DNA of 64,000 nucleotides from positions 1,920,001 to 1,984,000 of the forward strand of contig OZ253665.1 of assembly GCA_965263295.1 (NCBI GenBank), given 5' to 3'. Position numbers and translations under genes: made by a program. The notes under the pieces are model-generated. The model was not told the DNA's origin. It saw nothing but the letters and a program-made list of their open reading frames with translations, and searched no databases. This document shows, one piece after another, positions 501 through 19,257 of this stretch; within the stretch, counting starts at the first letter, position 1; each line of letters starts with the position of its first letter. Origin of the DNA: Spirochaetia bacterium (lineage in GTDB: Bacteria; Spirochaetota; Spirochaetia; SP-2023).

Positions 501-2849
501 TGATTCTGGCTTAAACCCTGTCAAAGTAATTTCTTTAGGCTCTCCATGATTTTTAATGGTGACTTTTAAAGTTCCCGCATCGTCATCAGCATCGCTAAAC
601 TCAATGTCACTATCAGGCAAAGCGCTTAAACCATCAATAGCTTTAATGGCTGCTATAATTTCACTATGATCAACATCAGATGCCTTCTTAGTCGAGTCAA
701 CAGTATAACCTGCTATTGAATCTGTGGACAAATCTTGCACTACGGCTGTCAATTTTTCTTCCGAAGGAGCTTCAGGCTCAGGCTCTGCCTTTGTAGTTTG
801 GAACTTTGTCAAAGTAATTTCTTTAGGCTCTCCATGATTTTTAATGGTGACTTTTAAAGTTCCCGCATCGTCATCAGCATCGCTAAACTCAATGTCACTA
901 TCAGGCAAAGCGCTTAAACCATCAATAGCTTTAATGGCTGCTATAATTTCACTATGATCAACATCAGATGCCTTCTTAGTCGAGTCAACAGTATAACCTG
1001 CTATTGAATCTGTGGACAAATCTTGCACTACGGCTGTCAATTTTTCTTCCGAAGGAGCTTCAGGCTCAGGCTCTGCCTTTGTAGTTTGGAACTTTGTCAA
1101 AGTAATTTCTTTAGGCTCTCCATGATTTTTAATGGTGACTTTTAAAGTTCCCGCATCGTCATCAGCATCGCTAAACTCAATGTCACTATCAGGCAAAGCG
1201 CTTAAACCATCAATAGCTTTAATGGCTGCTATAATTTCACTATGATCAACATCAGATGCCTTCTTAGTCGAGTCAACAGTATAACCTGCTATTGAATCTG
1301 TGGACAAATCTTGCACTACGGCTGTCAATTTTTCTTCCGAAGGAGCTTCAGGCTCAGGCTCTGCCTTTGTAGTTTGGAACTTTGTCAAAGTAATTTCTTT
1401 AGGCTCTCCATGATTTTTAATGGTGACTTTTAAAGTTCCCGCATCGTCATCAGCATCGCTAAACTCAATGTCACTATCAGGCAAAGCGCTTAAACCATCA
1501 ATAGCTTTAATGGCTGCTATAATTTCACTATGATCAACATCAGATGCCTTCTTAGTCGAGTCAACAGTATAACCTGCTATTGAATCTGTGGACAAATCTT
1601 GCACTACGGCTGTCAATTTTTCTTCCGAAGGAGCTTCAGGCTCAGGCTCTGCCTTTGTAGTTTGGAACTTTGTCAAAGTAATTTCTTTAGGCTCTCCATG
1701 ATTTTTAATGGTGACTGTTAAAGTACCCGCCGTGTCATCGAAATTCAAATCAATATCATCATCAAGCAAATACTTTAAATCACCAAGAGCTTTAATGTCA
1801 TTTTTATCTACCGTACTTGGGAGCTTTTTCTTGTCAAGTTCCTTAAAATTCTCTAAATCCGATAAAAATGTATCATAATAGTCAGTTATTTGAACGTTGC
1901 CGTCTACTTTTAGCTTCAGCTTTAAAACAAAAGATTTTTCTGGTTTTACATCGTGCCCCGCATGAGAGAATGGGCAGTCGTGCTTCTGCTTTTCAACTTT
2001 TGCACCTTCTGCACCAAAAGATTTTCTGCCGTAAGTTTTAATGAAGCTTAACTTTCGCCTCCTAGTAAATTCCGATGACGATTCTTCCGTATTTTCCCAA
2101 AAAGCTCCTTTTTTAGTATAAGGGAATTTACCTACTAGGTTCTTCGATATGTCTAGTGTAGTAAGATTATTATTAGAGCAGTCCAGGTATGCCAGACGTC
2201 TAAAATATTGAATGCCTTCCAGCGATTTTATCTTCCTATCTGACACATCTATTTTTAATAAATTACGCACGTCGAATGTAAATGTGTTCATCTCATGCTT
2301 GTCATTAAATGTATCAGCCGGTAAGACCTCATTTTCAGTTAAATATTTATATAATTCCTCGGAAATTTTGACATAGTTTGTCAAGGGTAGTTCAAAAGAA
2401 TAATCCATAGTCAGTGTAAAAGTCTTTGGTTTCGCCCAGTCATACCCGGTCAAGGTCCTCATGTCGTGAGCGGAAATTGGGATTTCAATTTTTTGGGGTC
2501 GGGGGCCTGAGTCCTCAAAATTATAAACTGACTTTAAAATCTTCTTAAATTGTTCCTTACAAATTTCCTTATCATCAGGTGATAAAGACTTACCAGCTGG
2601 CGCTTTTTGAGCTTCCGCTTGAGCTTCCGCAAAAAATTTGTCTACAATCTTATCTATGTCAATATCGTGATCGCCAAAATGAATTGTTAAAGACTCTGGC
2701 ACACTCTCCATGAAAGTCGACCGGGCAGTCGGCTTAGGATCGTCAAAATCTTCGACCTGGCAAGAGAATATTAGCCCGGCCAGAAGAATTGATATATATA
2801 TATATATATATATATCAGTATTTAGAAAAAATTTTCTTGATAGTTTCAT
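1..2849 (-). CDS. Large surface lipoprotein (3' end outside window) with a short leucine-rich repeat and tandem 96-aa repeats resembling the Mycoplasma lipoprotein-associated domain
   Basis: Not in the ORF track because it runs off the left edge. ATG at 2849 gives MKLSRKFFLNTDIYIYIYISILLAGLIFSC (lipobox Cys30), LRR IKSLEGIQYFRRLAYLDCSNNNLTTLDISKN, then repeats ending DDDAGTLKVTIKNHGEPKEITLTKF/GF; same frame holds at position 1. Confidence 0.85.
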   Translation of the reverse strand, partial: MKLSRKFFLNTDIYIYIYISILLAGLIFSCQVEDFDDPKPTARSTFMESVPESLTIHFGDHDIDIDKIVDKFFAEAQAEAQKAPAGKSLSPDDKEICKEQFKKILKSVYNFEDSGPRPQKIEIPISAHDMRTLTGYDWAKPKTFTLTMDYSFELPLTNYVKISEELYKYLTENEVLPADTFNDKHEMNTFTFDVRNLLKIDVSDRKIKSLEGIQYFRRLAYLDCSNNNLTTLDISKNLVGKFPYTKKGAFWENTEESSSEFTRRRKLSFIKTYGRKSFGAEGAKVEKQKHDCPFSHAGHDVKPEKSFVLKLKLKVDGNVQITDYYDTFLSDLENFKELDKKKLPSTVDKNDIKALGDLKYLLDDDIDLNFDDTAGTLTVTIKNHGEPKEITLTKFQTTKAEPEPEAPSEEKLTAVVQDLSTDSIAGYTVDSTKKASDVDHSEIIAAIKAIDGLSALPDSDIEFSDADDDAGTLKVTIKNHGEPKEITLTKFQTTKAEPEPEAPSEEKLTAVVQDLSTDSIAGYTVDSTKKASDVDHSEIIAAIKAIDGLSALPDSDIEFSDADDDAGTLKVTIKNHGEPKEITLTKFQTTKAEPEPEAPSEEKLTAVVQDLSTDSIAGYTVDSTKKASDVDHSEIIAAIKAIDGLSALPDSDIEFSDADDDAGTLKVTIKNHGEPKEITLTKFQTTKAEPEPEAPSEEKLTAVVQDLSTDSIAGYTVDSTKKASDVDHSEIIAAIKAIDGLSALPDSDIEFSDADDDAGTLKVTIKNHGEPKEITLTGFKPESIPSSDILQFVSKFIDNNLSTLELASGAQIADDTNTKNAILDAVKALSEYKKLSTEKKALIVSAFAADNLTVTPASGQDPASVALKTPAKKIELTVARKPFDLGKFIDDNLSSLELPIGTAPPAENDSTKDAIWAAVQELQAYKDLKTDEKSKVETAFDKGNLTVTP
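519..1716 (-). repeat. 288-bp tandem repeat, about 4.2 apparently identical copies (coding)
   Basis: tcaaagtaatttctttaggctctccatg starts at 521, 809, 1097, 1385 and 1673. Confidence 0.95.
2792..2815. repeat. (AT)12 dinucleotide tract in the signal-peptide coding region
   Basis: 24-nt alternating AT run between the start codon (2849) and the lipobox Cys codon (2762-2760). Confidence 0.95.
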
Positions 2850-9962: not shown

Positions 9963-10301
9963 CTAACTGGCAAAAAACTGATTTATGGCCACAACGGCAG
10001 CGATAGTCACGCCACTACAACTGATCATGGCCGTCAGCGACCATCTCATAAAACTATTTATTTGCGCTTGCACCGACTCAAAACGCTTATCCACCTGTTC
10101 AAAGCGATTATTCATATCCTTTCTAAGCGTCAATATTTCACCTCGCAGATCCTGTTCAAGATGTGTTATGTGGTTTGTCTGTGCTTTAAGCACCAAAACA
10201 ATGATCTCTTCGCTCTTTAGAGCCTCATTATTGGTTACTTTTTGCATGGCTTTTTTGGCATTTTCGTCCAGCCATTGTTCAAAACTCGAATTGTCAAACA
10301 T
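9963..10301 (-). CDS. Coiled-coil protein with C-terminal membrane anchor (DUF1640/Bdr-like)
   Basis: MNNRFEQVDKRFESV heptads and hydrophobic C-terminus; GGAGG RBS upstream of ATG 10301. Confidence 0.7.
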   Translation of the reverse strand: MFDNSSFEQWLDENAKKAMQKVTNNEALKSEEIIVLVLKAQTNHITHLEQDLRGEILTLRKDMNNRFEQVDKRFESVQAQINSFMRWSLTAMISCSGVTIAAVVAINQFFAS

Positions 10302-10371
10302 GAAAAAATACCTCCAGCCCGATTCTAAACATACCCAACATATTTTACAAGCCATATTTTGGTTCCCTCAG

Positions 10372-10524
10372 AGTCTCTGGCCAAGTAACCACGAAATACA
10401 CAAAAAAAAATACGAACAACACGAAAAATTCTAAAACGCCGCGCCTGCTGCCTCCCTGGCGCCCAAAGCTCCCCCGTTTAGATTTCGTGCCCTTTCGCTG
10501 TCTTCGTGCTCTTTCGTGGTTCCC
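10372..10524 (+). repeat. Dispersed CACGAA/TTCGTG element (internally shortened copy)
   Basis: agtctctggccaagtaaccacgaaatacac... to ...ctttcgtggttccc. Confidence 0.85.
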
Positions 10525-10705
10525 TTTCAACGTTCCCCTGTCACCCACAGCTCCCCCGTCTACATTTTGTGCCTTCTTGAAAAAAAAGACGGTCGCTTGA
10601 TTTTGTGCAGAAATGGTCTTAAAATAATTGCCAATTATATATTAATTTGCTATATTAATGTATAAATCTTTAAAATTTCGCATGGTATAAAGGAGAAAAA
10701 GAACA

Positions 10706-12359
10706 ATGAGTAGTAAACTTGCCCTTTTAAGCTACCTCAAGCTACCTCAAGCTACCTCAAGCTACCTCAAGCTACCTGGCGCTTGTAGCTTTTGCTCTCG
10801 TATTTGTGTTTTCGTCATGTGACGATCCAGTAAGCGACAAAAAGTTACCCCAAAAAAATGAATCCAGTGCCATTATGATTGCAGCGCTGAGGGATATGCT
10901 TGTTGAATTCCGCGAGCAACTTGTTGCATCGGGCCTTATGGAAAAAGAGGACGTCAATGAATTAGAGACATTAAACGGTTTAGAGTTAAAGAACAAGTTG
11001 GTTTCAACAGGCATCCTAGAAGAAACTGACGTCACCGCCCTTAACGGGTCAGGTAAAAAGGCATCCAGTAAAAAGGAATCCGGTGCAAAGGGCTCTAGTG
11101 CAAAAGGATCCAGTGCAAAGGAATCCGGTGCAGAAGGCTCCGGTGCACAGGCATCTAGTACAAAAGGCTCCGGTGCAGAGGAAAGCTCATTTGCCATTAC
11201 GCTTACAAAGCTGAAGGATATACTGGTTGAACACGATATCATAGAAAAAGATGACTTCGCTGGATTAAACGATTCAGAGTTAAAGAAAAAGTTGATTGAA
11301 AAAGAAATCCTGGAAGAAGCTGACGTCATAACCTTGCGCAATGAGCCCATTTCTCTGGATTTTTTAGAAGAGCTTAAAAAATTTGTTGAAAAAGCCTTTG
11401 CATATGCAATTTCAGATGACGAATCAAGGTCAATTTTTGCTGACGAAGATGGTAATCAAGTGACCGATTATGTTGGCAAAAATAATGATGTTGCCGCTGC
11501 AATTTTATATGACGAACATGGTAGAGGGGACATTCATCATGGTGGCAGAGGGACAGCTGAATTCGAAAAATATTATTCGAATTCAGAGGCAATTGGTGAC
11601 AGTATGAAAAAATCTATGAAAAACCTCCATGCTTATCTCCAAAAAATAGGGGAAAAGTCGGATAAATCTTCAAAATATCGACATCTTGCAGAAAATGAGG
11701 ATTTTATATTTTTAAAAGATGTAATAGATAAATTGTATATTAATATACTTAAATACGAACCGAGCACAGAAGAATATAGACAGGAAATGAAACGAGATAA
11801 GTACTTAAAAATTAGTTATCTGTATCATGAAGAGTACGAAAAAATTAGTTATCTGTATCACGAACCAAAAGAGTATGTCTATGCGGACCCGTTGGTAGGA
11901 CATGATTTATCAAACGAAAATAATGAGGATAAAGCGGTAGAAATTCTTCTCAAAGCCGCTGCAGGAGCAGGGTTTGAAATTTTGGATGGAATGTTAGAGT
12001 TTACCGAAAATAATAAATCTTTAATAAACGACCACTTATCGTATAATTTAATGACATTTAAATTGAAGAAATTTAAGAGAGTATCAGATCCTATAACAAT
12101 AGTATGTAAAAAAGATGAGGAATGTAAACCGGCAATAATAATTGAGGTAGGTGGGGAATTTAAACGGAAAACATATGTGGAAGATGAGATAGATGGGGAA
12201 CCTGAAATCAAACCGTATATGACAGATGTGGAAATTAAGAAAGCAAGGGAACTGGTGCGTTCTAACGGGGAAAAAGTAAAGGGTTTTGCGGAAGATATCC
12301 TAAATTCTTTACCAGAGGATTGGAAAAACGAATTTCGCGACAAATATGATGTGATATAA
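10706..12359 (+). CDS. Phase-variable lipoprotein, paralog 1 (currently frameshifted at the 10-bp tract)
   Basis: AGGAG RBS and ATG 10706; without the tract the N-terminus reads MSSKLALLSYLALVAFALVFVFSSC (lipobox) and joins ORF 10806..12359; with 4 units it is 1 nt out of frame. Confidence 0.85.
10729..10777 (+). repeat. 10-bp tandem repeat AAGCTACCTC x4 plus 9-nt partial
   Basis: Read directly from the sequence. Confidence 0.97.
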
Positions 12360-12398
12360 TTGGTATTTGTCCGTGGGACTCTTTAATTAATAAAGAAG

Positions 12399-12435
12399 CA
12401 CCAATAGGTAAAAGGCATTCCTTTGCCTATTGGTG
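12399..12435 (+). terminator. Hairpin downstream of lipoprotein paralog 1
   Basis: caccaatagg...cctattggtg inverted repeat followed by a T-rich run. Confidence 0.5.
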
Positions 12436-12594
12436 GAATTTTTCTGCACCAATAATCGTTTTTGGTTATATATTTTTAGTACAATGAAGACGCAGATCGG
12501 CGTCTTACATTGAACAAAAGGAAGGAACTTCAGACGATGGGAAGAAGAATACGTTTATAAAAAAGAGTCATTTCTGGCATTCTCAGGAGCCCGT

Positions 12595-12901
12595 ATAAAA
12601 AATCCTAGTTAGCGGCTTTGAGCCCTTCGGAGGTGATAAAATCAATCCTGCGCTGGAAGCGGTCAGGCTCCTGGATGGCCGTCCATTGGATGGCGGCGAG
12701 GTTGTGATCTGCCAAGTACCGGTCGTTCGTTATAAATCTGTCGAAGTGGTAAAAAGGGCAATCGAAACCGAAAAACCAGATGCCGTTATCACGGTGGGTC
12801 AGGCGACTAATGGTTCTAGCCCAAGCATGGAGTTAGAGCAGATTGTTAAGGGATTACTGATTGCCGCTCAAAGCATTATTGATAATCAAAAAGACATTTA
12901 A
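12595..12901 (+). pseudogene. pcp: Pyroglutamyl-peptidase I remnant
   Basis: [18 protein letters not shown]...[11 protein letters not shown] fused directly to C-terminal [11 protein letters not shown]; start codon destroyed (in-frame TAA at 12596) and the catalytic middle is missing. Confidence 0.8.
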
Positions 12902-12904
12902 CAA

Positions 12905-14782
12905 TTACTGGCTGCAGTATTCAACCTCGCGCACAGAATTGAGGATATCCTGCTCTAGGCGACGAATTTCCGCCTGAGCTCGCTTTGCAGCTTCAGCGAC
13001 AGACCAGAAGACTTTAGGTTCGCCTTTGGCCGCTTTTTGCGAGCGCAAGCAAAATTCAAGGCCACCATTTTCCAGAGAACGCTTGCCGATTGTCAGGCGA
13101 ATCGGAATGCCGATCAGATCGGCATCCTTAAACTTGAAACCGGGGCTTTCCTCGCGATCGTCAAAGAGCACTTCCAGCCCTGCTGCCAGAAGGCTGTGGT
13201 AGACTTGCCCGGCCACATCCAGAACCTGCGGCTCTTTTTTGCCCGCCAAAGAAAGCAAATGGACTTGGTAAGGCGCGACACTGATTGGCCAAAGCAAACC
13301 GTCGGCATCATTATGTTGCTCGGCGATACAAGCAGCCAAGCGCCCGACACCTATGCCGTAAGAACCCATAAGGACCGGTTTTGGCCTGCCACTCTGATCG
13401 GTAAAAGAGCAGCCCATGGCCTCACTATAAAAAGTCCCAAGCTGAAAAATATTGCCAATTTCGACAGCTTTCGTACTTTGCAGCGGCGCAGCACAACGCA
13501 CGCACTGATGCCCCGCCGCCGCCGCACATAAATCACCGATGTAATCGGCCTCAAAGTCCCGGCCATAATTAAGCCCGCGCAAATGATAACCCTCTTTGTT
13601 GGCTCCCACAATCCAGTTATTGCCCTGAGTAATCAATTCATCGACAACCACAATGGGGCCTTTCAAGTCCGTCGAGTTTCTCGATTTCCTTAAATTCCTC
13701 AAATTTCTCAAATTTAACGGAGAGGCATAACCAGGAACGGCGCCAACGGCGCGGATTTCTTCATCCTCCGCCGGACGAAGTTCTTTGGCCCCCAGAATAG
13801 CCGCCAGCTTGGTTTCATTTAAGGTCATATCACCGGGCAAAGCCGCCGCCACCAGTCTACAATCATCTTCAGTCACTTTGGGCTTTGCGCCTGAATCTGC
13901 GCCTGACTCCGTTTCTACGGCGGCAAAACTAGCCACGAAAAAAACCATTTTGGCACACTCGCTGGCGCTTACTCCCAGAAAGGCCGAGACTTCGGCAATC
14001 GTCTTGCAGTTGGGCGTCGCGACTTGCTCTAGTGCGGCCGGCTCAGAAGGGGTCAACACCGGTTTGCGAAACTGGGCGATCTGGCGATTGGCACTGTAGT
14101 TGCACAAGGGACAAAATAAAACCGTATCCTCGCCAACCCCGCTGGCATACATAAATTCATGGGCAATACGGCCTCCCATCACGCCAGTGTCAGCAAGCAC
14201 AGCCATGGCGGGCAAGGCACAGCGGTCAAAAATGCGGAAATAAGCCCGGTAGTGCTTCTGATACTGCTCTTCAAGGCCTTCCCAGCTAGTGTCCAGCGAA
14301 TAACTATCCTTCATTACAAATTCACGCACGCGAATCAAACCCGCGCGCGGGCGCGGGTCATCGCGCCATTTGGTTTGCAGATGATACACGAGGCGAGGCA
14401 AGTCACGGTAACTGTGAATGCACTGTCGCGCCAAGTCGGCAAGCGCTTCTTCGTGAGTCATCGCAAGCGCCATATCGTGCCCCTTGCGATCGACAAAGCG
14501 CCCCATTTCGGCGCCAATCTTGTTCCAGCGTCCGCTCTGCCGCCACAAGTCGGCCGGTTGGGCCACCGGCATGCAAACTTCCTGGGCGCCGATGGCTTCC
14601 ATTTCTTCACGCAAAATAGTCGATATTTTTTGCATCACACGCAGGCCCAATGGCAAATAGCTAAAAATACCTGCCGCAACCTGGTGGATATATCCGGCGC
14701 GCAACAATAGTTCATGGCTGCGAACGCCCGCGCCCGCAGGAACTTCCTTGCGCGTCTGGCCAATTAGTTGCGACATTTTCAT
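12905..14782 (-). CDS. proS: Proline--tRNA ligase
   Basis: THEE, KWRDDPRPRAGLIRVREFVMKDSYS, insertion editing domain, GSYGIGVGR, anticodon-binding domain. Confidence 0.97.
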   Translation of the reverse strand: MKMSQLIGQTRKEVPAGAGVRSHELLLRAGYIHQVAAGIFSYLPLGLRVMQKISTILREEMEAIGAQEVCMPVAQPADLWRQSGRWNKIGAEMGRFVDRKGHDMALAMTHEEALADLARQCIHSYRDLPRLVYHLQTKWRDDPRPRAGLIRVREFVMKDSYSLDTSWEGLEEQYQKHYRAYFRIFDRCALPAMAVLADTGVMGGRIAHEFMYASGVGEDTVLFCPLCNYSANRQIAQFRKPVLTPSEPAALEQVATPNCKTIAEVSAFLGVSASECAKMVFFVASFAAVETESGADSGAKPKVTEDDCRLVAAALPGDMTLNETKLAAILGAKELRPAEDEEIRAVGAVPGYASPLNLRNLRNLRKSRNSTDLKGPIVVVDELITQGNNWIVGANKEGYHLRGLNYGRDFEADYIGDLCAAAAGHQCVRCAAPLQSTKAVEIGNIFQLGTFYSEAMGCSFTDQSGRPKPVLMGSYGIGVGRLAACIAEQHNDADGLLWPISVAPYQVHLLSLAGKKEPQVLDVAGQVYHSLLAAGLEVLFDDREESPGFKFKDADLIGIPIRLTIGKRSLENGGLEFCLRSQKAAKGEPKVFWSVAEAAKRAQAEIRRLEQDILNSVREVEYCSQ

Positions 14783-14995
14783 GGCGCCGTATTATGCGTA
14801 TTTCAAAGCCGTGAGTAAAGGGATAAAATCAAGTTCCACAAGACTTAGGCAAACCACCCAAGTTCGCGAGTGGAAGCGAGTGCCCCGCCCGCACGCGGGC
14901 CCAAATTAAAATTTAATGGAGGAGTTAATGCACTGCCAGTCGCGCTTGAATTTAATTCTTGCCATCCTGATGGCCGTTTTCGACGCAGTTAGAGC

Positions 14996-15679
14996 TTAAC
15001 GCTGTAAAGCTTCCTGCAAGAATACGATCTCGGCCTTTTGGACGGTGGCGCTAACATCGCGCGGTGGATCCTGGGCCACATCTAAAGCTGTGCGCCCTTG
15101 CTTGTCCCGCACATTGATTTGAGCTCCGGAATCTATTAATAAGCGGCTTTGTGGCAGAGCCTCAGAGCCGGCAGCCCAATGCAACGGAGTACTACCTAAA
15201 TTGTTTGCTTTATTCACATCGGCTCCAGCGGCGAGCAAAGTACTCAAAACCCGTGCATTATTGTTAAAACCTGCGGCCATATGAATGGGACGACTGCCCA
15301 TTTGATTTTCAGACTCAAGCCCGGCTCCTTGCTGCAGCAGAAAATCCAAGACTTCGGGACGATTAAAACCCGCGGCTAAAAACAGTGGAGTGCGACCATT
15401 GCTATCGCGCACATCAATATTGCCATCGCGTTCCAGTATATGCCTAGACAAAGCCACCGAGCCCCAGCCCGCCGCGTAATGCAGGTCGCTCAAAGTATCA
15501 AATTGCAGGTAATCCTTCAGCAGGGAACGCCGGGCGGCTTGCTTGGCTCTCTCTAATTCGGCTTCCCAGTCGGGAACAGATTGAAGCTTTGTTGCACTTT
15601 CTGTCACTTTAGTACTCGCACATGAAAAAAACAACAAGAGCGTTAAGCAGCAAAGCCAGATATTTATTTTGTATTCCAA
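14996..15679 (-). CDS. Ankyrin-repeat lipoprotein
   Basis: LLFFSC lipobox; GRTPLFLAA, GSRPIHMAA, GSTPLHWAA ankyrin repeats. Confidence 0.88.
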   Translation of the reverse strand: MEYKINIWLCCLTLLLFFSCASTKVTESATKLQSVPDWEAELERAKQAARRSLLKDYLQFDTLSDLHYAAGWGSVALSRHILERDGNIDVRDSNGRTPLFLAAGFNRPEVLDFLLQQGAGLESENQMGSRPIHMAAGFNNNARVLSTLLAAGADVNKANNLGSTPLHWAAGSEALPQSRLLIDSGAQINVRDKQGRTALDVAQDPPRDVSATVQKAEIVFLQEALQR

Positions 15680-15785
15680 TATTTTGTCCTCCGATTATCC
15701 ATTTTACATTAAGCAACCACAGCTTTAGCGGGCAATTTTAACGGATAACTTGCACTTTCAACCCGGCCTTTGTACATTTCTCTCA

Positions 15786-16961
15786 ATGGCTTACAAAAGT
15801 ATCCGCTTTTACAATTTTCGCAATCTGGCCGACCGCGAGATAGAGCTCAATGGCAAGATTTTCTATCTAATCGGCGAAAATGGCGCAGGCAAAAGCTCTT
15901 TCCTGGAAGCTCTGTACTTGTTAAGCTACGGCTCCTCATTTCGCGAAAAAAACCTAGAGCACTGCTTGCGCGAAAATTCCTCACCCTTGGCCATCAGCGG
16001 CAAGCTAGAGCAGCGAGGCCAGCCATACAAAATCCAGCTGCATTATAGCAGAGAAAGCTCAAAAAAAGCACCAGGGCAGAAGCAAATTAGCCTGGACGGC
16101 AAGCGCCTACAAGATCGCAAAGAACTATTGCAGCTCGCCCCAAGCATTATATTTTCCAGCAGTGACATTACTTATATCAAGGGTAGCCCCAGAGACAAGC
16201 GCCAGTTTATCGACCAAACGATCAGCCTGATCGACCCTACATACATCGACTTGGTGCGCAACTATACGCGCAACTTATTACAGCGCAACTGGATACTCAA
16301 AGACAGGCAGCCGAACCTCTTGCCAACCTATACTCTGCAGATGGCCGAAATGGGCCTAGAGATACAACGCCGCCGCACATTGAATATAGCCCGGCTCTCG
16401 GAAATATTTTCCAAGCTTTTCCATCATGTCTCCAACTTTGATACCCCCGTAACGATAGATTACCAGCCATCGTGGCCACATTTTTTAGTCGAATTAAATG
16501 CCGATAAAGCCCTGCAACACTGCCTTGAATACATAGAGCAACGCCAGCAACGTGATATTTTATCAGGTTCAAGCCAGAATGGCCCCCATCGCGACCAAAT
16601 TCAATTTAATTTTTCCAAAGGAGATCTTGAAAATAAAACAAGAGATAACTCAACTGCCGAGTTCGCCAAAGACTTTACCAAATGGGCTTCTTCGGGCCAA
16701 CTGCGCCTGGCGGCCCTCGCTCTAAAAAGCGCTCAAGCCAATTATCTGCAACAGAATGCCGATTCTCCCGGCGTTTTGTTATTAGACGATGTCCTCCTAG
16801 AGATGGACAGTACCCGCCGCAAATTATTTCTGGCGAGCCTTCCGCCCCACCGACAGGCTTTCTTTACCTTGTTGCCCAACGAAGATTACCAAAGTTATCC
16901 CTTTTCTCAGTACCAGGTTTTCCAAATACAGAAGGGCCAAGTTAGTTCCTTTGTTACATAA
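15786..16961 (+). CDS. recF: DNA replication and repair protein RecF
   Basis: NFRNL, Walker A GENGAGKS, GPHRD, ASSGQ, LLLDDVLLEMD. Confidence 0.95.
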   Translation: MAYKSIRFYNFRNLADREIELNGKIFYLIGENGAGKSSFLEALYLLSYGSSFREKNLEHCLRENSSPLAISGKLEQRGQPYKIQLHYSRESSKKAPGQKQISLDGKRLQDRKELLQLAPSIIFSSSDITYIKGSPRDKRQFIDQTISLIDPTYIDLVRNYTRNLLQRNWILKDRQPNLLPTYTLQMAEMGLEIQRRRTLNIARLSEIFSKLFHHVSNFDTPVTIDYQPSWPHFLVELNADKALQHCLEYIEQRQQRDILSGSSQNGPHRDQIQFNFSKGDLENKTRDNSTAEFAKDFTKWASSGQLRLAALALKSAQANYLQQNADSPGVLLLDDVLLEMDSTRRKLFLASLPPHRQAFFTLLPNEDYQSYPFSQYQVFQIQKGQVSSFVT

Positions 16962-16993
16962 AAAAGGCATATAGTTATTGACTTAATTAATAT

Positions 16994-17270
16994 CACGAAA
17001 GGGGGACCACGAAAAGGCACGAAGACGGCGAAAGAGTAACCACGAAAGGGGGACCACGAAATTACACGAAAACAGCGAAATGTCACGAAAGTTAGGTAGG
17101 GGAGCCGCGGGTGGAACATGGGGAGCTTTGGGCGCCAGGGGAAAGAAGAAAATGAGGCTGGATGGATGACGGGAGGCGTGGGGGCGTCCAGGCGGATGGG
17201 CGCGGTGTTTTAGAATTTTCGTGTTGTTCGTATTTTTTTTTGGTGTTTTTCGTGGTTACTTTGCCAGAGA
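16994..17270 (-). repeat. Dispersed CACGAA/TTCGTG element (inverted copy between recF and tRNA-Pro 3' ends)
   Basis: gggaccacgaaaaggcacgaagacggcgaaa... to ...gtttttcgtggttactttgccagaga. Confidence 0.88.
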
Positions 17271-17276
17271 ATAACT

Positions 17277-17349
17277 TCGGGGTGGAGGGACTTGAACCCC
17301 CGATCTTCTGCTCCCAAAGCAGACGCCTTAGCCACTAGGCCACACCCCG
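17277..17349 (-). tRNA. tRNA-Pro (TGG)
   Basis: Minus strand CGGGGTGTGGCCTAGTGGCTAAGGCGTCTGCTTTGGGAGCAGAAGATCGGGGGTTCAAGTCCCTCCACCCCGA folds as a cloverleaf; CCA not encoded. Confidence 0.96.
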
Positions 17350-17431
17350 ATTGGCTAGGATATTAACGAATTCTGGGGCTTTGTCAATCAGAGGCGAGTT
17401 CCCTTTGCTTGTTGTCGTTAATTCAGTTTTA

Positions 17432-17460
17432 GAGTCCCTGGCCGAGTAACAACGAAGAAC
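17432..17460 (+). repeat. Truncated left end of the dispersed element
   Basis: gagtccctggccgagtaacaacgaagaac matches the element left terminus. Confidence 0.6.
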
Positions 17461-17614
17461 TCACTGGTTTTAATTATCGCAGCCGTCTTGAAAAAAGACG
17501 GGTGCTTGATTTTGTGCAGAAATGGTCTTAAAATAATTGCCAATTATATATTAATTTGCTATATTAATGTATAAATCTTTAAAATTTCGCATGGTATAAA
17601 GGAGAAAAAGAACA

Positions 17615-19257
17615 ATGAGTAGTAAACTTGCCCTTTTAAGCTACCTCAAGCTACCTCAAGCTACCTCAAGCTACCTCAAGCTACCTCAAGCTACCTCAAG
17701 CTACCTCAAGCTACCTCAAGCTACCTCAAGCTACCTCAAGCTACCTCAAGCTACCTCAAGCTACCTCAAGCTACCTCAAGCTACCTGGCGCTTGTAGCTT
17801 TTGCTCTCGTATTTGTGTTTTCGTCATGTGACGATCCAGTAAGCGACAAAAAGTTACCCCAAAAAAATGAATCCAGTGCCATTACGGTTGCAGCGCTGAG
17901 GGATATGCTTGTTGAATTCCGCGAGCAACTTGTTGCATCGAAACTTATGACAAAAGAGGACGTCAATGAATTAGAGACATTAAACGGTTTAGAGTTAAAG
18001 AACAAGTTGGTTTCAACAGGCATCCTAGAAGAAACTGACGTCACCGCCCTTAACGGGTCAGGTAAAAAGGCATCCAGTAAAAAGGAATCCGGTGCAGAAG
18101 GATCCAGTGCACAGGCATCCAGTAAAAAGGAATCCAGTAAAAAGGAATCCAGTGAGAAGGAATCCGGTGCAGAAGGCTCCGGTGCAAAAGAAAGCGCATT
18201 TGCCATTACGCTTACAAAGCTGAAGGATATACTTGTTGACAACAAGATCATAGAAGAAGCTGAAGTCGCTGGATTAGACGATTCAGGTTTAAAGGAAAAG
18301 TTGCTTGAAAAGGAAATCCTGGAAGAAGCTGACGTCATAACCTTGCGCAAGCCAGAGTCGACGAAGGAACCTATTTCTCTGGATTTTTTAGAAGAGCTTA
18401 AAAAATTTGTTGAAAAAGTCTCTGCATATTCAATTTCAGATGGCAAATCAAGGTCAATTTTCGATGACGAAGACGGTAAAGAGATATACGATTATGTAAT
18501 CGGAGAGAGAGACGTAACGCCGAAATCGCAAGCACATCTTGCCGTAAGAAGAAGAATTGTTAATGATGCTAAAAATACCATAAAGAATTCTACTACTACA
18601 TTGAAAAAAATAGATCATAAATTGGCCAATTCTCCGAAATATCAAATTTTAGCAACAGATGAAAATTTTATAGGACTGAAAGATTTAGTTGATAAAGTGT
18701 ATAGTGATATACTTAAAAGCGAAACTCAAGATCAAGAAGGTCCAACTTATCCCGATGAAGTTTTTGAACCGTATAAATATTCTGACCCCTTGATTGAATA
18801 CAATCTTTCACAAGAGGAAAATGAGGATAAAGCGGTAGAAATTCTTCTCAAAGCCACTGCAGGAGCAGGGTTTGAATTTTTGGATGAAGTGTTAGAGATT
18901 ACCGAAAATAATAAATCTTTAATAAACGACCACTTATCGTATAATTTAATGACATTTAAATTGAAGAAATTTAAGAGAGTATCAGATCCTATAACAATAG
19001 TATGTAAAAAAGATGAGGAATGTAAACCGGCAATATTAATTGAGGTAGATGGGAAATTTAAACGGAAAACATATGAGGAAGATGAGATAGATGGGGAACC
19101 TGAAATCAAACCGTATATGACAGATGTGGAAATTAAGAAAGCAAGGGAACTGGTGCGTTCTAACGGGGAAAAAGTAAAGGGTTTTGCGGAAGATATCCTA
19201 AATTCTTTACCAGAGGATTGGAAAAACGAATTTCGCGACAAATATGATGTGATATAA
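17615..19257 (+). CDS. Phase-variable lipoprotein, paralog 2 (currently frameshifted at the 10-bp tract)
   Basis: Same RBS and N-terminus as paralog 1; ATG 17615 is 200 nt from the VFSSC frame (ORF 17815..19257), so out of frame with 14 units. Confidence 0.85.
17638..17786 (+). repeat. 10-bp tandem repeat AAGCTACCTC x14 plus 9-nt partial
   Basis: Read directly from the sequence. Confidence 0.97.

What the first reader, a model, noticed from the sequence alone, without database searches (positions are those of the whole stretch)
10706..19257. 10-bp repeat switch inside the signal peptide of two paralogous lipoproteins, both currently OFF
Seen: both genes share promoter region, RBS and ATG, then carry (AAGCTACCTC)n with n=4 (10729-10777) and n=14 (17638-17786). 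The ATG-to-VFSSC distance is 60+10n nt, so only n divisible by 3 restores the frame; n=0 gives the clean signal peptide MSSKLALLSYLALVAFALVFVFSSC. The tract has no stop in any frame and adds LKLPQATSSY blocks ahead of the hydrophobic core. Known: slipped-strand phase variation of surface proteins normally uses 1-7-nt units. Inference: a decanucleotide ON/OFF switch on a lipoprotein family, with tract length also tuning the switching rate. Gene callers will mis-start these genes and miss the lipobox.
Basis: partly seen in the sequence, partly recalled or inferred. Interest (0 to 1): 0.85.

Follow-up and report, generated by a model that had tools for sequence, protein, structure and literature searches.

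The report
Ten-base repeat switch in spirochaete lipoproteins
Two sister lipoprotein genes of a spirochaete are knocked out of frame by a perfect 10-base repeat inside their export signal, and other samples carry other repeat counts, including a repeat-free in-frame version, so this is likely a random on/off switch for predicted surface proteins, with a longer repeat unit than any such switch I found in print.

Summary
Confirmed. Both genes carry a perfect AAGCTACCTC tract (n=4 and n=14, plus 9 nt) between an SD-backed ATG and the lipobox. Both are out of frame; the downstream ORFs are intact. The tract is in read-derived contigs of 3 of the 4 samples laid, from 2 studies, so it is not an assembly artefact. 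Copy number varies: an in-frame n=0 allele beside tract-bearing ones in one sample, n=2 in two others. A relative from another assembly is in frame from the same ATG. Nine (AT)9-14 tracts sit in other signal peptides of this genome (5 in frame, 4 out). Two of three genus-mates carry 7-bp tracts at the same spot in 24 and 110 genes per 800 kb. Best reading: Opa-type frameshift phase variation with a 10-bp unit; the longest unit I saw reported for such a switch is 8. Not shown: reversible switching in a clone, expression, lipidation, function. The scan noted this kind of switch before on other DNA, with 1-7 bp units. New variant of a known kind.

The parts
10628..10656 (+). Gene A: best sigma-70-like promoter (TTGCCA-17-TATATT, TG before -10), upstream of SD and ATG; two weaker sites at 10597-10625 and 10647-10676
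   Evidence: consensus match only (10 sites found in the region, 6.0 expected)
10690..10695 (+). Gene A Shine-Dalgarno-like AAGGAG, 10 nt before ATG
   Evidence: sequence
10706..12359 (+). Gene A: predicted lipoprotein, out of frame at n=4 (38-aa peptide ending at TGA 10820-10822); 537 aa if n=0
10729..10777 (+). Gene A tract (AAGCTACCTC)4 + AAGCTACCT
   Evidence: seen as entry, cycle and exit pieces in contigs of runs X1 and X2, and as entry and cycle pieces in X4
10776..10820 (+). Gene A hydrophobic core LALVAFALVFVF and lipobox-like VFSSC (Cys codon 10818-10820)
   Evidence: Kyte-Doolittle 11-mer maximum 3.18; no SignalP available
11053..11183 (+). Gene A in-frame 15-bp low-complexity S/G/A/K/E linker repeats, between two predicted small helical domains
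   Evidence: pLDDT about 70 on the two small domains only
11451..11930 (+). Gene A variable central region (58% nucleotide identity to B over 118 aligned codons; flanking blocks 97-98%)
17537..17565 (+). Gene B: same promoter-like site as gene A
   Evidence: consensus match only
17599..17604 (+). Gene B Shine-Dalgarno-like AAGGAG
   Evidence: sequence
17615..19257 (+). Gene B: predicted lipoprotein paralogue, out of frame at n=14 (60-aa peptide ending at TAG 17795-17797)
17638..17786 (+). Gene B tract (AAGCTACCTC)14 + AAGCTACCT
17785..17829 (+). Gene B hydrophobic core and lipobox-like VFSSC (Cys codon 17827-17829)
18062..18165 (+). Gene B in-frame 15-bp low-complexity linker repeats

Best explanation
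A perfect 10-bp tract between the start codon and the hydrophobic core puts two paralogous predicted lipoprotein genes out of frame, its copy number varies between samples, and it likely acts as a slipped-strand on/off switch (Opa-type translational phase variation). Shown: the layout; both genes out of frame as assembled; intact downstream ORFs; the tract in read-derived contigs; alleles with n=0 (in frame) and n=2; a further relative in frame from the same ATG. Inferred: replication slippage adds or removes whole units; counts divisible by three make a full pre-lipoprotein, the others a 20-68 aa junk peptide. In-frame tract alleles would lengthen the polar n-region by 10 aa per three units (Cys at 35, 45 ... 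75). Gene A would be one step from ON (n=3), and gene B one step from an ON form with a very long leader (n=15). Also inferred: n=0 is a locked-ON end state, because the junction C exists only between units, and it could regain a tract only by gene conversion from the paralogue. The near-identical ends and divergent middle suggest that the pair are alternative surface variants that exchange DNA.
For:: layout, frame arithmetic, far beyond chance; run X4 (sample S3) has a contig that skips exactly 40 nt (10728 to 10769, n=0), branching from the same node as a contig entering at least 3 units (depth 110); the tract cycle has depth 368 (mean n about 5.4). Runs X1 (S1) and X2 (S2, another study) show entry, cycle and exit pieces and a branch that fits only n=2 (depth 2 listed in X2; depth 12 against 130 in X1, derived from bin sums for the one unlisted record). 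P0005, from a separate 42-kb contig, starts MSSKLALSATSSYLALVAFALVFVFASC, in frame with an intact lipobox. AT runs in the genome are 8-10 nt (58) or 18-28 nt (10), none between; 9 of those 10 lie in signal peptides, 5 in frame and 4 out; 11 of 33 perfect non-triplet tracts with units of 2 nt or more lie in signal-peptide DNA (one further hit, in a dispersed repeat, dropped as spurious); P about 7e-23, or 3e-9 if paralogues count as 5 families; genus-mates G001 and G002 have 24 of 25 and 110 of 113 heptamer tracts (800 kb each) within 60 nt of an ATG that one frame joins to a long ORF; in-frame members have Cys at 54-76, so long leaders exist in this genus. A and B ORFs are open for 517 and 480 codons, their three indels are whole codons, and the middle has dN 0.54 against dS 0.97; three of five tested tract-bearing genes have surface-type repeat domains (Lipoprotein_17; Chlam_PMP; DUF285 with Flg_new).
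Against: No clone-level or time-course data. X1 and X2 hold a minor strain (depth about 16 and 2), so n=2 may be a strain difference, not slippage within one strain. In X4 I cannot tell whether n=0 and the tract sit in different paralogues, strains or cells; no tract-exit contig was laid there, and the n=0 contig has one further unlisted difference. No in-frame tract allele (n=3, 6, 12, 15) could be seen, because short-word contigs collapse them. P0005 has no perfect tract and leaves the frame after about 99 residues, so it may be a broken or mis-assembled copy. Genus-mate G003 had 0 heptamer tracts and no comparable signal-peptide tracts in 800 kb. The tracts of G001 and G002 start at a promoter-like site, so they may not work in the same way. 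Lipidation, export and function were not tested.
Confidence: 0.8

Rival explanations
1. Recent inactivation: a tandem duplication knocked out one dispensable gene, was copied into its paralogue by gene conversion and now drifts in length, with no selected switching. n=0 and P0005 are simply ancestral alleles.
For: Both copies are out of frame in the assembly. The genes are species-specific (1 of 41 genomes; absent beside proS-ank-recF in the G001 stretch). The homologues P0004 and P0005 from other assemblies look frameshifted elsewhere. The tract pattern was in 1 of 21 genomes.
Against: The ORFs are intact with in-frame indels only. The tract sits where 9 AT tracts of this genome and over 130 heptamer tracts of two genus-mates sit. 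Expansion to 14 pure copies is not needed for inactivation.
Confidence: 0.12
2. The tract is a real switch, but only short in-frame alleles (n=0 or 3) work. Long tracts such as n=14 are effectively silent donor copies, because a 65-75 residue leader is not exported, and switching at gene B happens mainly by recombination with gene A.
For: Cys would be at 65 or 75 for n=12 or 15. The A and B ends are 97-98% identical and P0003 mixes a B-type insertion with an A-type middle.
Against: In-frame genes of G001 and G002 have Cys at 54-76, so such leaders may be tolerated; this is predicted, not shown.
Confidence: 0.05
3. Assembly or sequencing error: the true counts are in frame and the genes are constitutive.
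For: Exact counts cannot be read from short-word contigs; X1 depth ratios give mean n 7.2-7.4 against 8.1-8.5 expected. X1 may be the source sample and so not independent.
Against: Tract pieces are in contigs of three samples and two studies. The n=2 allele is itself out of frame. Whole-unit errors would have to hit both genes, and gene A's 49-nt tract is short.
Confidence: 0.02
4. The tract acts on transcription or mRNA structure, or ribosomes bypass it, and the protein is made from a downstream start whatever n is.
For: A weak terminator-like hairpin overlaps the tract end in both genes. Internal ATGs exist downstream of the lipobox.
Against: The hairpin is within chance (2 found against 1.4 expected) and the folding z-score is -0.99. 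No promoter-like site ends at the A or B tract. No SD-like sequence lies between tract and hydrophobic core. Downstream starts lose the signal peptide.
Confidence: 0.01

Closest known systems
Neisseria opa (P.II) genes: CTCTT pentamer repeats in the signal-peptide coding region (passage read in PMC3899988)
   Same: Non-triplet pure repeat in signal-peptide DNA of a paralogous surface-protein family; frame decides ON or OFF; conserved ends with a variable middle (the last point for opa is recalled).
   Different: Unit of 10 bp, not 5; lipoprotein, not a beta-barrel (recalled); the repeat encodes a polar n-region extension ahead of the hydrophobic core; two genes; switching not yet measured.
Haemophilus influenzae losA octanucleotide tract (cited title and one sentence in PMC6156194; the primary paper was not held)
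   Same: Long-unit intragenic repeat whose copy number sets the reading frame.
   Different: 8 bp against 10 bp; a LOS biosynthesis gene, not a signal peptide.
Treponema pallidum poly-G phase variation (tprL, tprE/G/J, tp0126; passages in PMC7864442)
   Same: Spirochaete surface proteins varied by repeat length.
   Different: Homopolymers in promoters acting on transcription; here a 10-bp unit in the coding region acts on the frame.
Heptamer intragenic tracts, such as H. influenzae AACAACC in an HI1369 homologue and AATTTTG in hmw1a (passages in PMC2651432)
   Same: Long-unit frameshifting tracts in surface-protein genes.
   Different: 7 bp; not described there as lying in a lipoprotein signal peptide. 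The same paper says units above 7 nt are infrequent.

Membership tests
SSR contingency locus (translational phase variation, Opa type) | Pure tandem repeat, unit not divisible by 3, inside the 5' coding region | tested here: met
SSR contingency locus (translational phase variation, Opa type) | Intact ORF downstream, joined to the true start in one of three phases | tested here: met
   in-frame natural forms
SSR contingency locus (translational phase variation, Opa type) | Copy number varies in whole units among strains or samples | tested here: met
   n=0, 2, 4, 14 and a mean of about 5.4
SSR contingency locus (translational phase variation, Opa type) | High-frequency variation within one strain | tested here: inconclusive
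   mixed alleles in X1, X2 and X4, but paralogues and minor strains cannot be separated
SSR contingency locus (translational phase variation, Opa type) | Reversible ON/OFF change of the protein | not testable with these tools
   needs clones, proteomics or a reporter
SSR contingency locus (translational phase variation, Opa type) | Gene product is surface-related | tested here: inconclusive
   predicted lipoprotein; outer-surface location not shown; no family match
Spirochaetal lipoprotein (signal peptidase II substrate) | Basic n-region, uncharged hydrophobic core, lipobox ending in Cys (rule recalled) | tested here: met
   K4, LALVAFALVFVF, VFSSC at n=0; hydropathy 3.18; kept in P0005 as VFASC
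Spirochaetal lipoprotein (signal peptidase II substrate) | Lipidation and cleavage at Cys | not testable with these tools
   no SignalP or experiment available
Any described protein family for the mature part | Profile or fold match | tested here: inconclusive
   Pfam only DUF1631 and PIN_9, both below cut-off; NCBIfam none; model pLDDT 40.6

The most novel reading that the evidence does not exclude
This spirochaete genus has repeatedly invented repeat switches in lipoprotein leaders with 2-, 7- and 10-bp units. The 10-bp version is the longest-unit frameshift switch I could find, is invisible to phasome searches limited to 1-9 nt, and has a third, locked-ON state (n=0) that only gene conversion from the paralogue can reset. 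In genus-mate G002 the same principle runs a library of hundreds of lipoprotein genes of which about 95% are OFF (105 of 110 sampled), each with a promoter-like site embedded at the tract start: a mass antigenic-variation system not found in my literature searches.
Probability: 0.4. Interest if true: 0.82.

Novelty: new variant of a known kind. Interest (0 to 1): 0.62.

Why it matters
It would extend frameshift phase variation to a 10-bp unit, at the border between micro- and minisatellites (border as defined in PMC3899988). One survey I read searched units of 1-9 nt (PMC5909438), so switches like this one would be missed, and the genes are mis-started by gene callers. It adds a coding-region switch to spirochaetes, where the paper I read describes promoter poly-G tracts. 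It also points to a much larger, apparently undescribed repertoire in genus-mates, which makes questions about surface variation in these bacteria testable from long reads alone.

Tried and rejected
Function of the mature protein: Pfam, NCBIfam (88), ESM Atlas whole and N-terminal part (43, 99), AlphaFold on a 4-sequence alignment (pLDDT 40.6), Foldseek (no E below 1) and VIA-align (best Z 7.4, generic helices) gave nothing usable. Homologues: only P0001-P0006. JGI metagenome scans found 0 loci by pattern and 2 by protein, both matching only the out-of-frame tail of P0005 with no hit to A or B. The GTDB pattern scan gave 6 short matches in unrelated contexts, none with A or B homology. A weak in-genome hit at G000 974655 is a 26-aa remnant among stop codons. 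No RNA holder was listed; run X6 laid nothing. A hairpin at the tract end is not above chance. (AT)9 tracts were in 0 of 5 relatives. Mature parts of the G001 and G002 repertoire show no BLAST similarity to A or B. Literature: 10 searches. '10-bp tandem repeat' with phase variation and frameshift gave 0. '10-bp repeat' with phase variation gave 1, on the in-frame EcoR124I spacer. A six-term variant gave 2, neither a case. Two spirochaete searches gave 2 and 1 papers, none on this. A recalled genus name gave only a names list and settled nothing. I read passages only, of PMC2651432, PMC5231331, PMC11868660, PMC3899988, PMC3315296, PMC4692102, PMC7383803, PMC6156194, PMC5909438, PMC3077401 and PMC7864442; no supplements. 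Most subscription papers are not in the library, so an earlier report of a 10-bp switch is not excluded.
Full report
Observation. The two genes start at ATG 10706 (A) and 17615 (B), each 10 nt after AAGGAG, and carry perfect AAGCTACCTC tracts of 4.9 and 14.9 copies. The block from promoter region to early mature protein is identical at 241 of 242 nt outside the tract. Of n=0 to 15, only multiples of three join the ATG to the long ORF; as assembled the products are 38 and 60 aa. The genome has no other array of this unit, and shuffled genomes reach only 19-22 nt at period 10. Database gene calls start downstream of the lipobox. The host is a spirochaete: three FlaA matches over the cut-off, none in 14 control genomes, agreeing with earlier notes on this genome.

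Is it real, and does it vary? Seven runs were listed, none on record as RNA. I laid five of them, as contigs, on gene A; both paralogues fall on this stretch. The pieces behave as a 31-mer graph (my inference from their lengths). Runs X1 (sample S1, possibly the source) and X2 (S2, another study) show tract entry, cycle and exit pieces. The depth ratios give mean n 7.2-7.4 in X1, against 8.1-8.5 expected from the assembly, and about 8.7-10 in the shallow X2. Both also branch one base early on each side of the tract, which only an n=2 allele explains: depth 2 in X2 (listed) and 12 in X1 (derived from bin sums for the one unlisted record). Run X4 (S3, with its own substitutions) has a contig that skips exactly 40 nt, the repeat-free in-frame allele, branching from the same node as a contig entering at least three units at depth 110. 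Its cycle depth gives mean n about 5.4, and the n=0 contig's mean depth (152.3) fits about one third n=0 (152.7 computed, assuming flank depth 160). X3, same sample as X1, was laid only; X6 laid nothing. Limits: X1 and X2 contain a minor strain, paralogues cannot be separated, X4 shows no exit piece, and in-frame tract alleles would be hidden in the cycle. So length variation among samples is shown; slippage within a clone is not.

Relatives of the protein. Only six sequences exist in the searches. P0003 and P0004 come from one 550-kb contig. P0003 is called from the internal ATG and mixes a B-type insertion with an A-type middle; P0004 is a C-terminal piece. P0005, from a 42-kb contig, begins at the same Met, has three residues more than the n=0 form, keeps the lipobox, and leaves the frame after about 99 residues; I could not see its DNA. 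No homologue was found in 40 other genomes, and G001 keeps proS-ank-recF without these genes in the 20 kb read. A and B are 97-98% identical at both ends and 58% in the middle, all three indels are whole codons, the middle has dN 0.54 against dS 0.97, and the near-identical ends differ almost only at replacement sites (about 16 against 0.3). This fits paralogues under gene conversion with a variable centre (inference). Function is unknown in the sense that no family or fold matched; my working reading is a surface antigen or host-contact protein.

Genomic context. AT runs in this genome are either 8-10 nt (58) or 18-28 nt (10). Nine of the ten long ones lie 7-41 nt after an ATG inside signal peptides, 5 in frame and 4 out; the tenth lies next to a TTGACA-like site upstream of a gene. 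With A and B, 11 of 33 perfect non-triplet tracts with units of 2 nt or more lie in signal-peptide DNA; one more hit in a dispersed repeat was dropped. The target size used a rough lipoprotein census (63 in frame plus 6), and the genes fall into about five families, for which P is still 3e-9.

Genus context. I read 800 kb each of G001 (3.5 Mb), G002 (3.3 Mb) and G003 (2.7 Mb). G001 has 25 heptamer tracts, 24 of them just after an ATG that one frame joins to a long ORF, 9 in frame. G002 has 113, 110 so placed, 5 in frame (P 2e-13 against one third, though paralogues are not independent). G003 has none. Whole-genome patterns gave 132 and 482 overlapping matches, which overcount genes. In-frame members have Cys at 54-76, so long repeat-encoded leaders occur here. 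Their mature parts are unrelated to A and B. A caution: a sigma-70-like pair ends at the tract start in 21 of 24 and 88 of 111 genes, or 22 and 102 with a looser pattern chosen after seeing the data, against 0 in six control windows per gene. An SD-backed start lies upstream in 24 of 24 and 110 of 111, and no SD-backed in-frame ATG, GTG or TTG lies between tract and core. I cannot explain this double layout. A, B and the AT-tract genes do not have it.

Mechanism. Shown: layout, frame rule, intact ORFs, tract in read data, whole-unit allelic series with an in-frame member. Inferred from known contingency loci (PMC3899988 passages): slippage changes n by whole units, and longer, purer tracts change faster. 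Inferred from the sequence: the C that joins units is absent from the n=0 form, so n=0 cannot regenerate the tract by slippage and would stay ON until gene conversion restores it. Rivals are recent inactivation with drift (0.12), a switch where only short alleles work (0.05), assembly error (0.02) and a non-frame mechanism (0.01).

Comparison. It works like Neisseria opa. It meets the sequence and between-strain criteria of an SSR contingency locus; within-clone reversibility and protein output are untested. The unit is longer than those I found reported for frameshift switches (7 nt in PMC2651432; 8 nt for losA). A Type III mod survey searched 1-9 nt, a meningococcal study searched to 10 nt, and PMC4692102 calls work on 5-9 nt units rare. 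N-terminal enrichment of such repeats is known (PMC3315296). Four searches aimed at a 10-bp switch found no case. Earlier notes of this scan describe the same kind of switch with 1-7 bp units in other genomes; none matched this protein or a spirochaete heptamer repertoire.

Verdict. Real, very likely a phase-variation switch, a new variant of a known kind. Interest 0.62: the mechanism is textbook, but the unit length, the natural allelic series and the large repertoire in genus-mates are not.

Noticed in passing
G002:C1:1-800000 (L110-L149); also genome-wide: 110 lipoprotein-like genes per 800 kb, largely in tandem arrays, each with a 7-bp tract (mostly CAATATC, 4-6 copies) about 46 nt after an SD-backed ATG; only 5 in frame. 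A sigma-70-like promoter ends at the tract start in 88-102 of 111. Probably several hundred genes genome-wide. Deserves its own study.
   Followed up: partly
G001:C4:1-760000 and 780001-820000 (L070-L109); genome-wide: 24 dispersed lipoprotein-like genes with (TCGCTCA), (TCGCACA) or (CCGCACA) x5-7 about 23 nt after the ATG, 9 in frame; same embedded promoter-like site; one member has Chlamydia Pmp-type repeats.
   Followed up: partly
window 2792-2815 (minus strand; ATG at 2849): (AT)12 tract inside the signal peptide of an in-frame 975-aa lipoprotein with Lipoprotein_17 repeats; one of nine such AT-tract genes in the genome.
   Followed up: partly
G000:C1:694411-694830: (CTGCT)84, 420 bp and pure, in the middle of a glycosyltransferase-like gene (label from my reading of the sequence, no library call); its two halves are in different frames.
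   Followed up: partly
G000:C1:2401241-2401289, 462476, 1690739: Three paralogous lipoprotein genes (MLMSKQK...) have an 11-bp repeat TTTAATGTTTA directly before the RBS, 4.5 copies in one and about 2.5 in the others: a possible promoter or 5' UTR length switch.
   Followed up: no
G000:C1:96351-96376: The tenth long AT tract is not in a signal peptide; it follows a TTGACA site upstream of a membrane-protein gene and may vary a promoter.
   Followed up: no
window about 10350-10560 and 17200-17270: A dispersed repeat with many copies genome-wide precedes both genes; the 129-aa ORF at 9963-10355 has several paralogues clustered at G000 1907000-1913000.
   Followed up: no
P0005, residues 99-101: This relative leaves the frame at a PPP stretch, which may be a poly-C run: either a second slippery site or a sequencing error; DNA not available.
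   Followed up: no
G003:C5 (L042, L049, L057, L067): Perfect 23-bp tandem arrays of 3-8 copies with related units, not tied to a start codon in my test.
   Followed up: no
window 17276-17350: tRNA-Pro lies just upstream of gene B on the opposite strand, a possible integration site.
   Followed up: no
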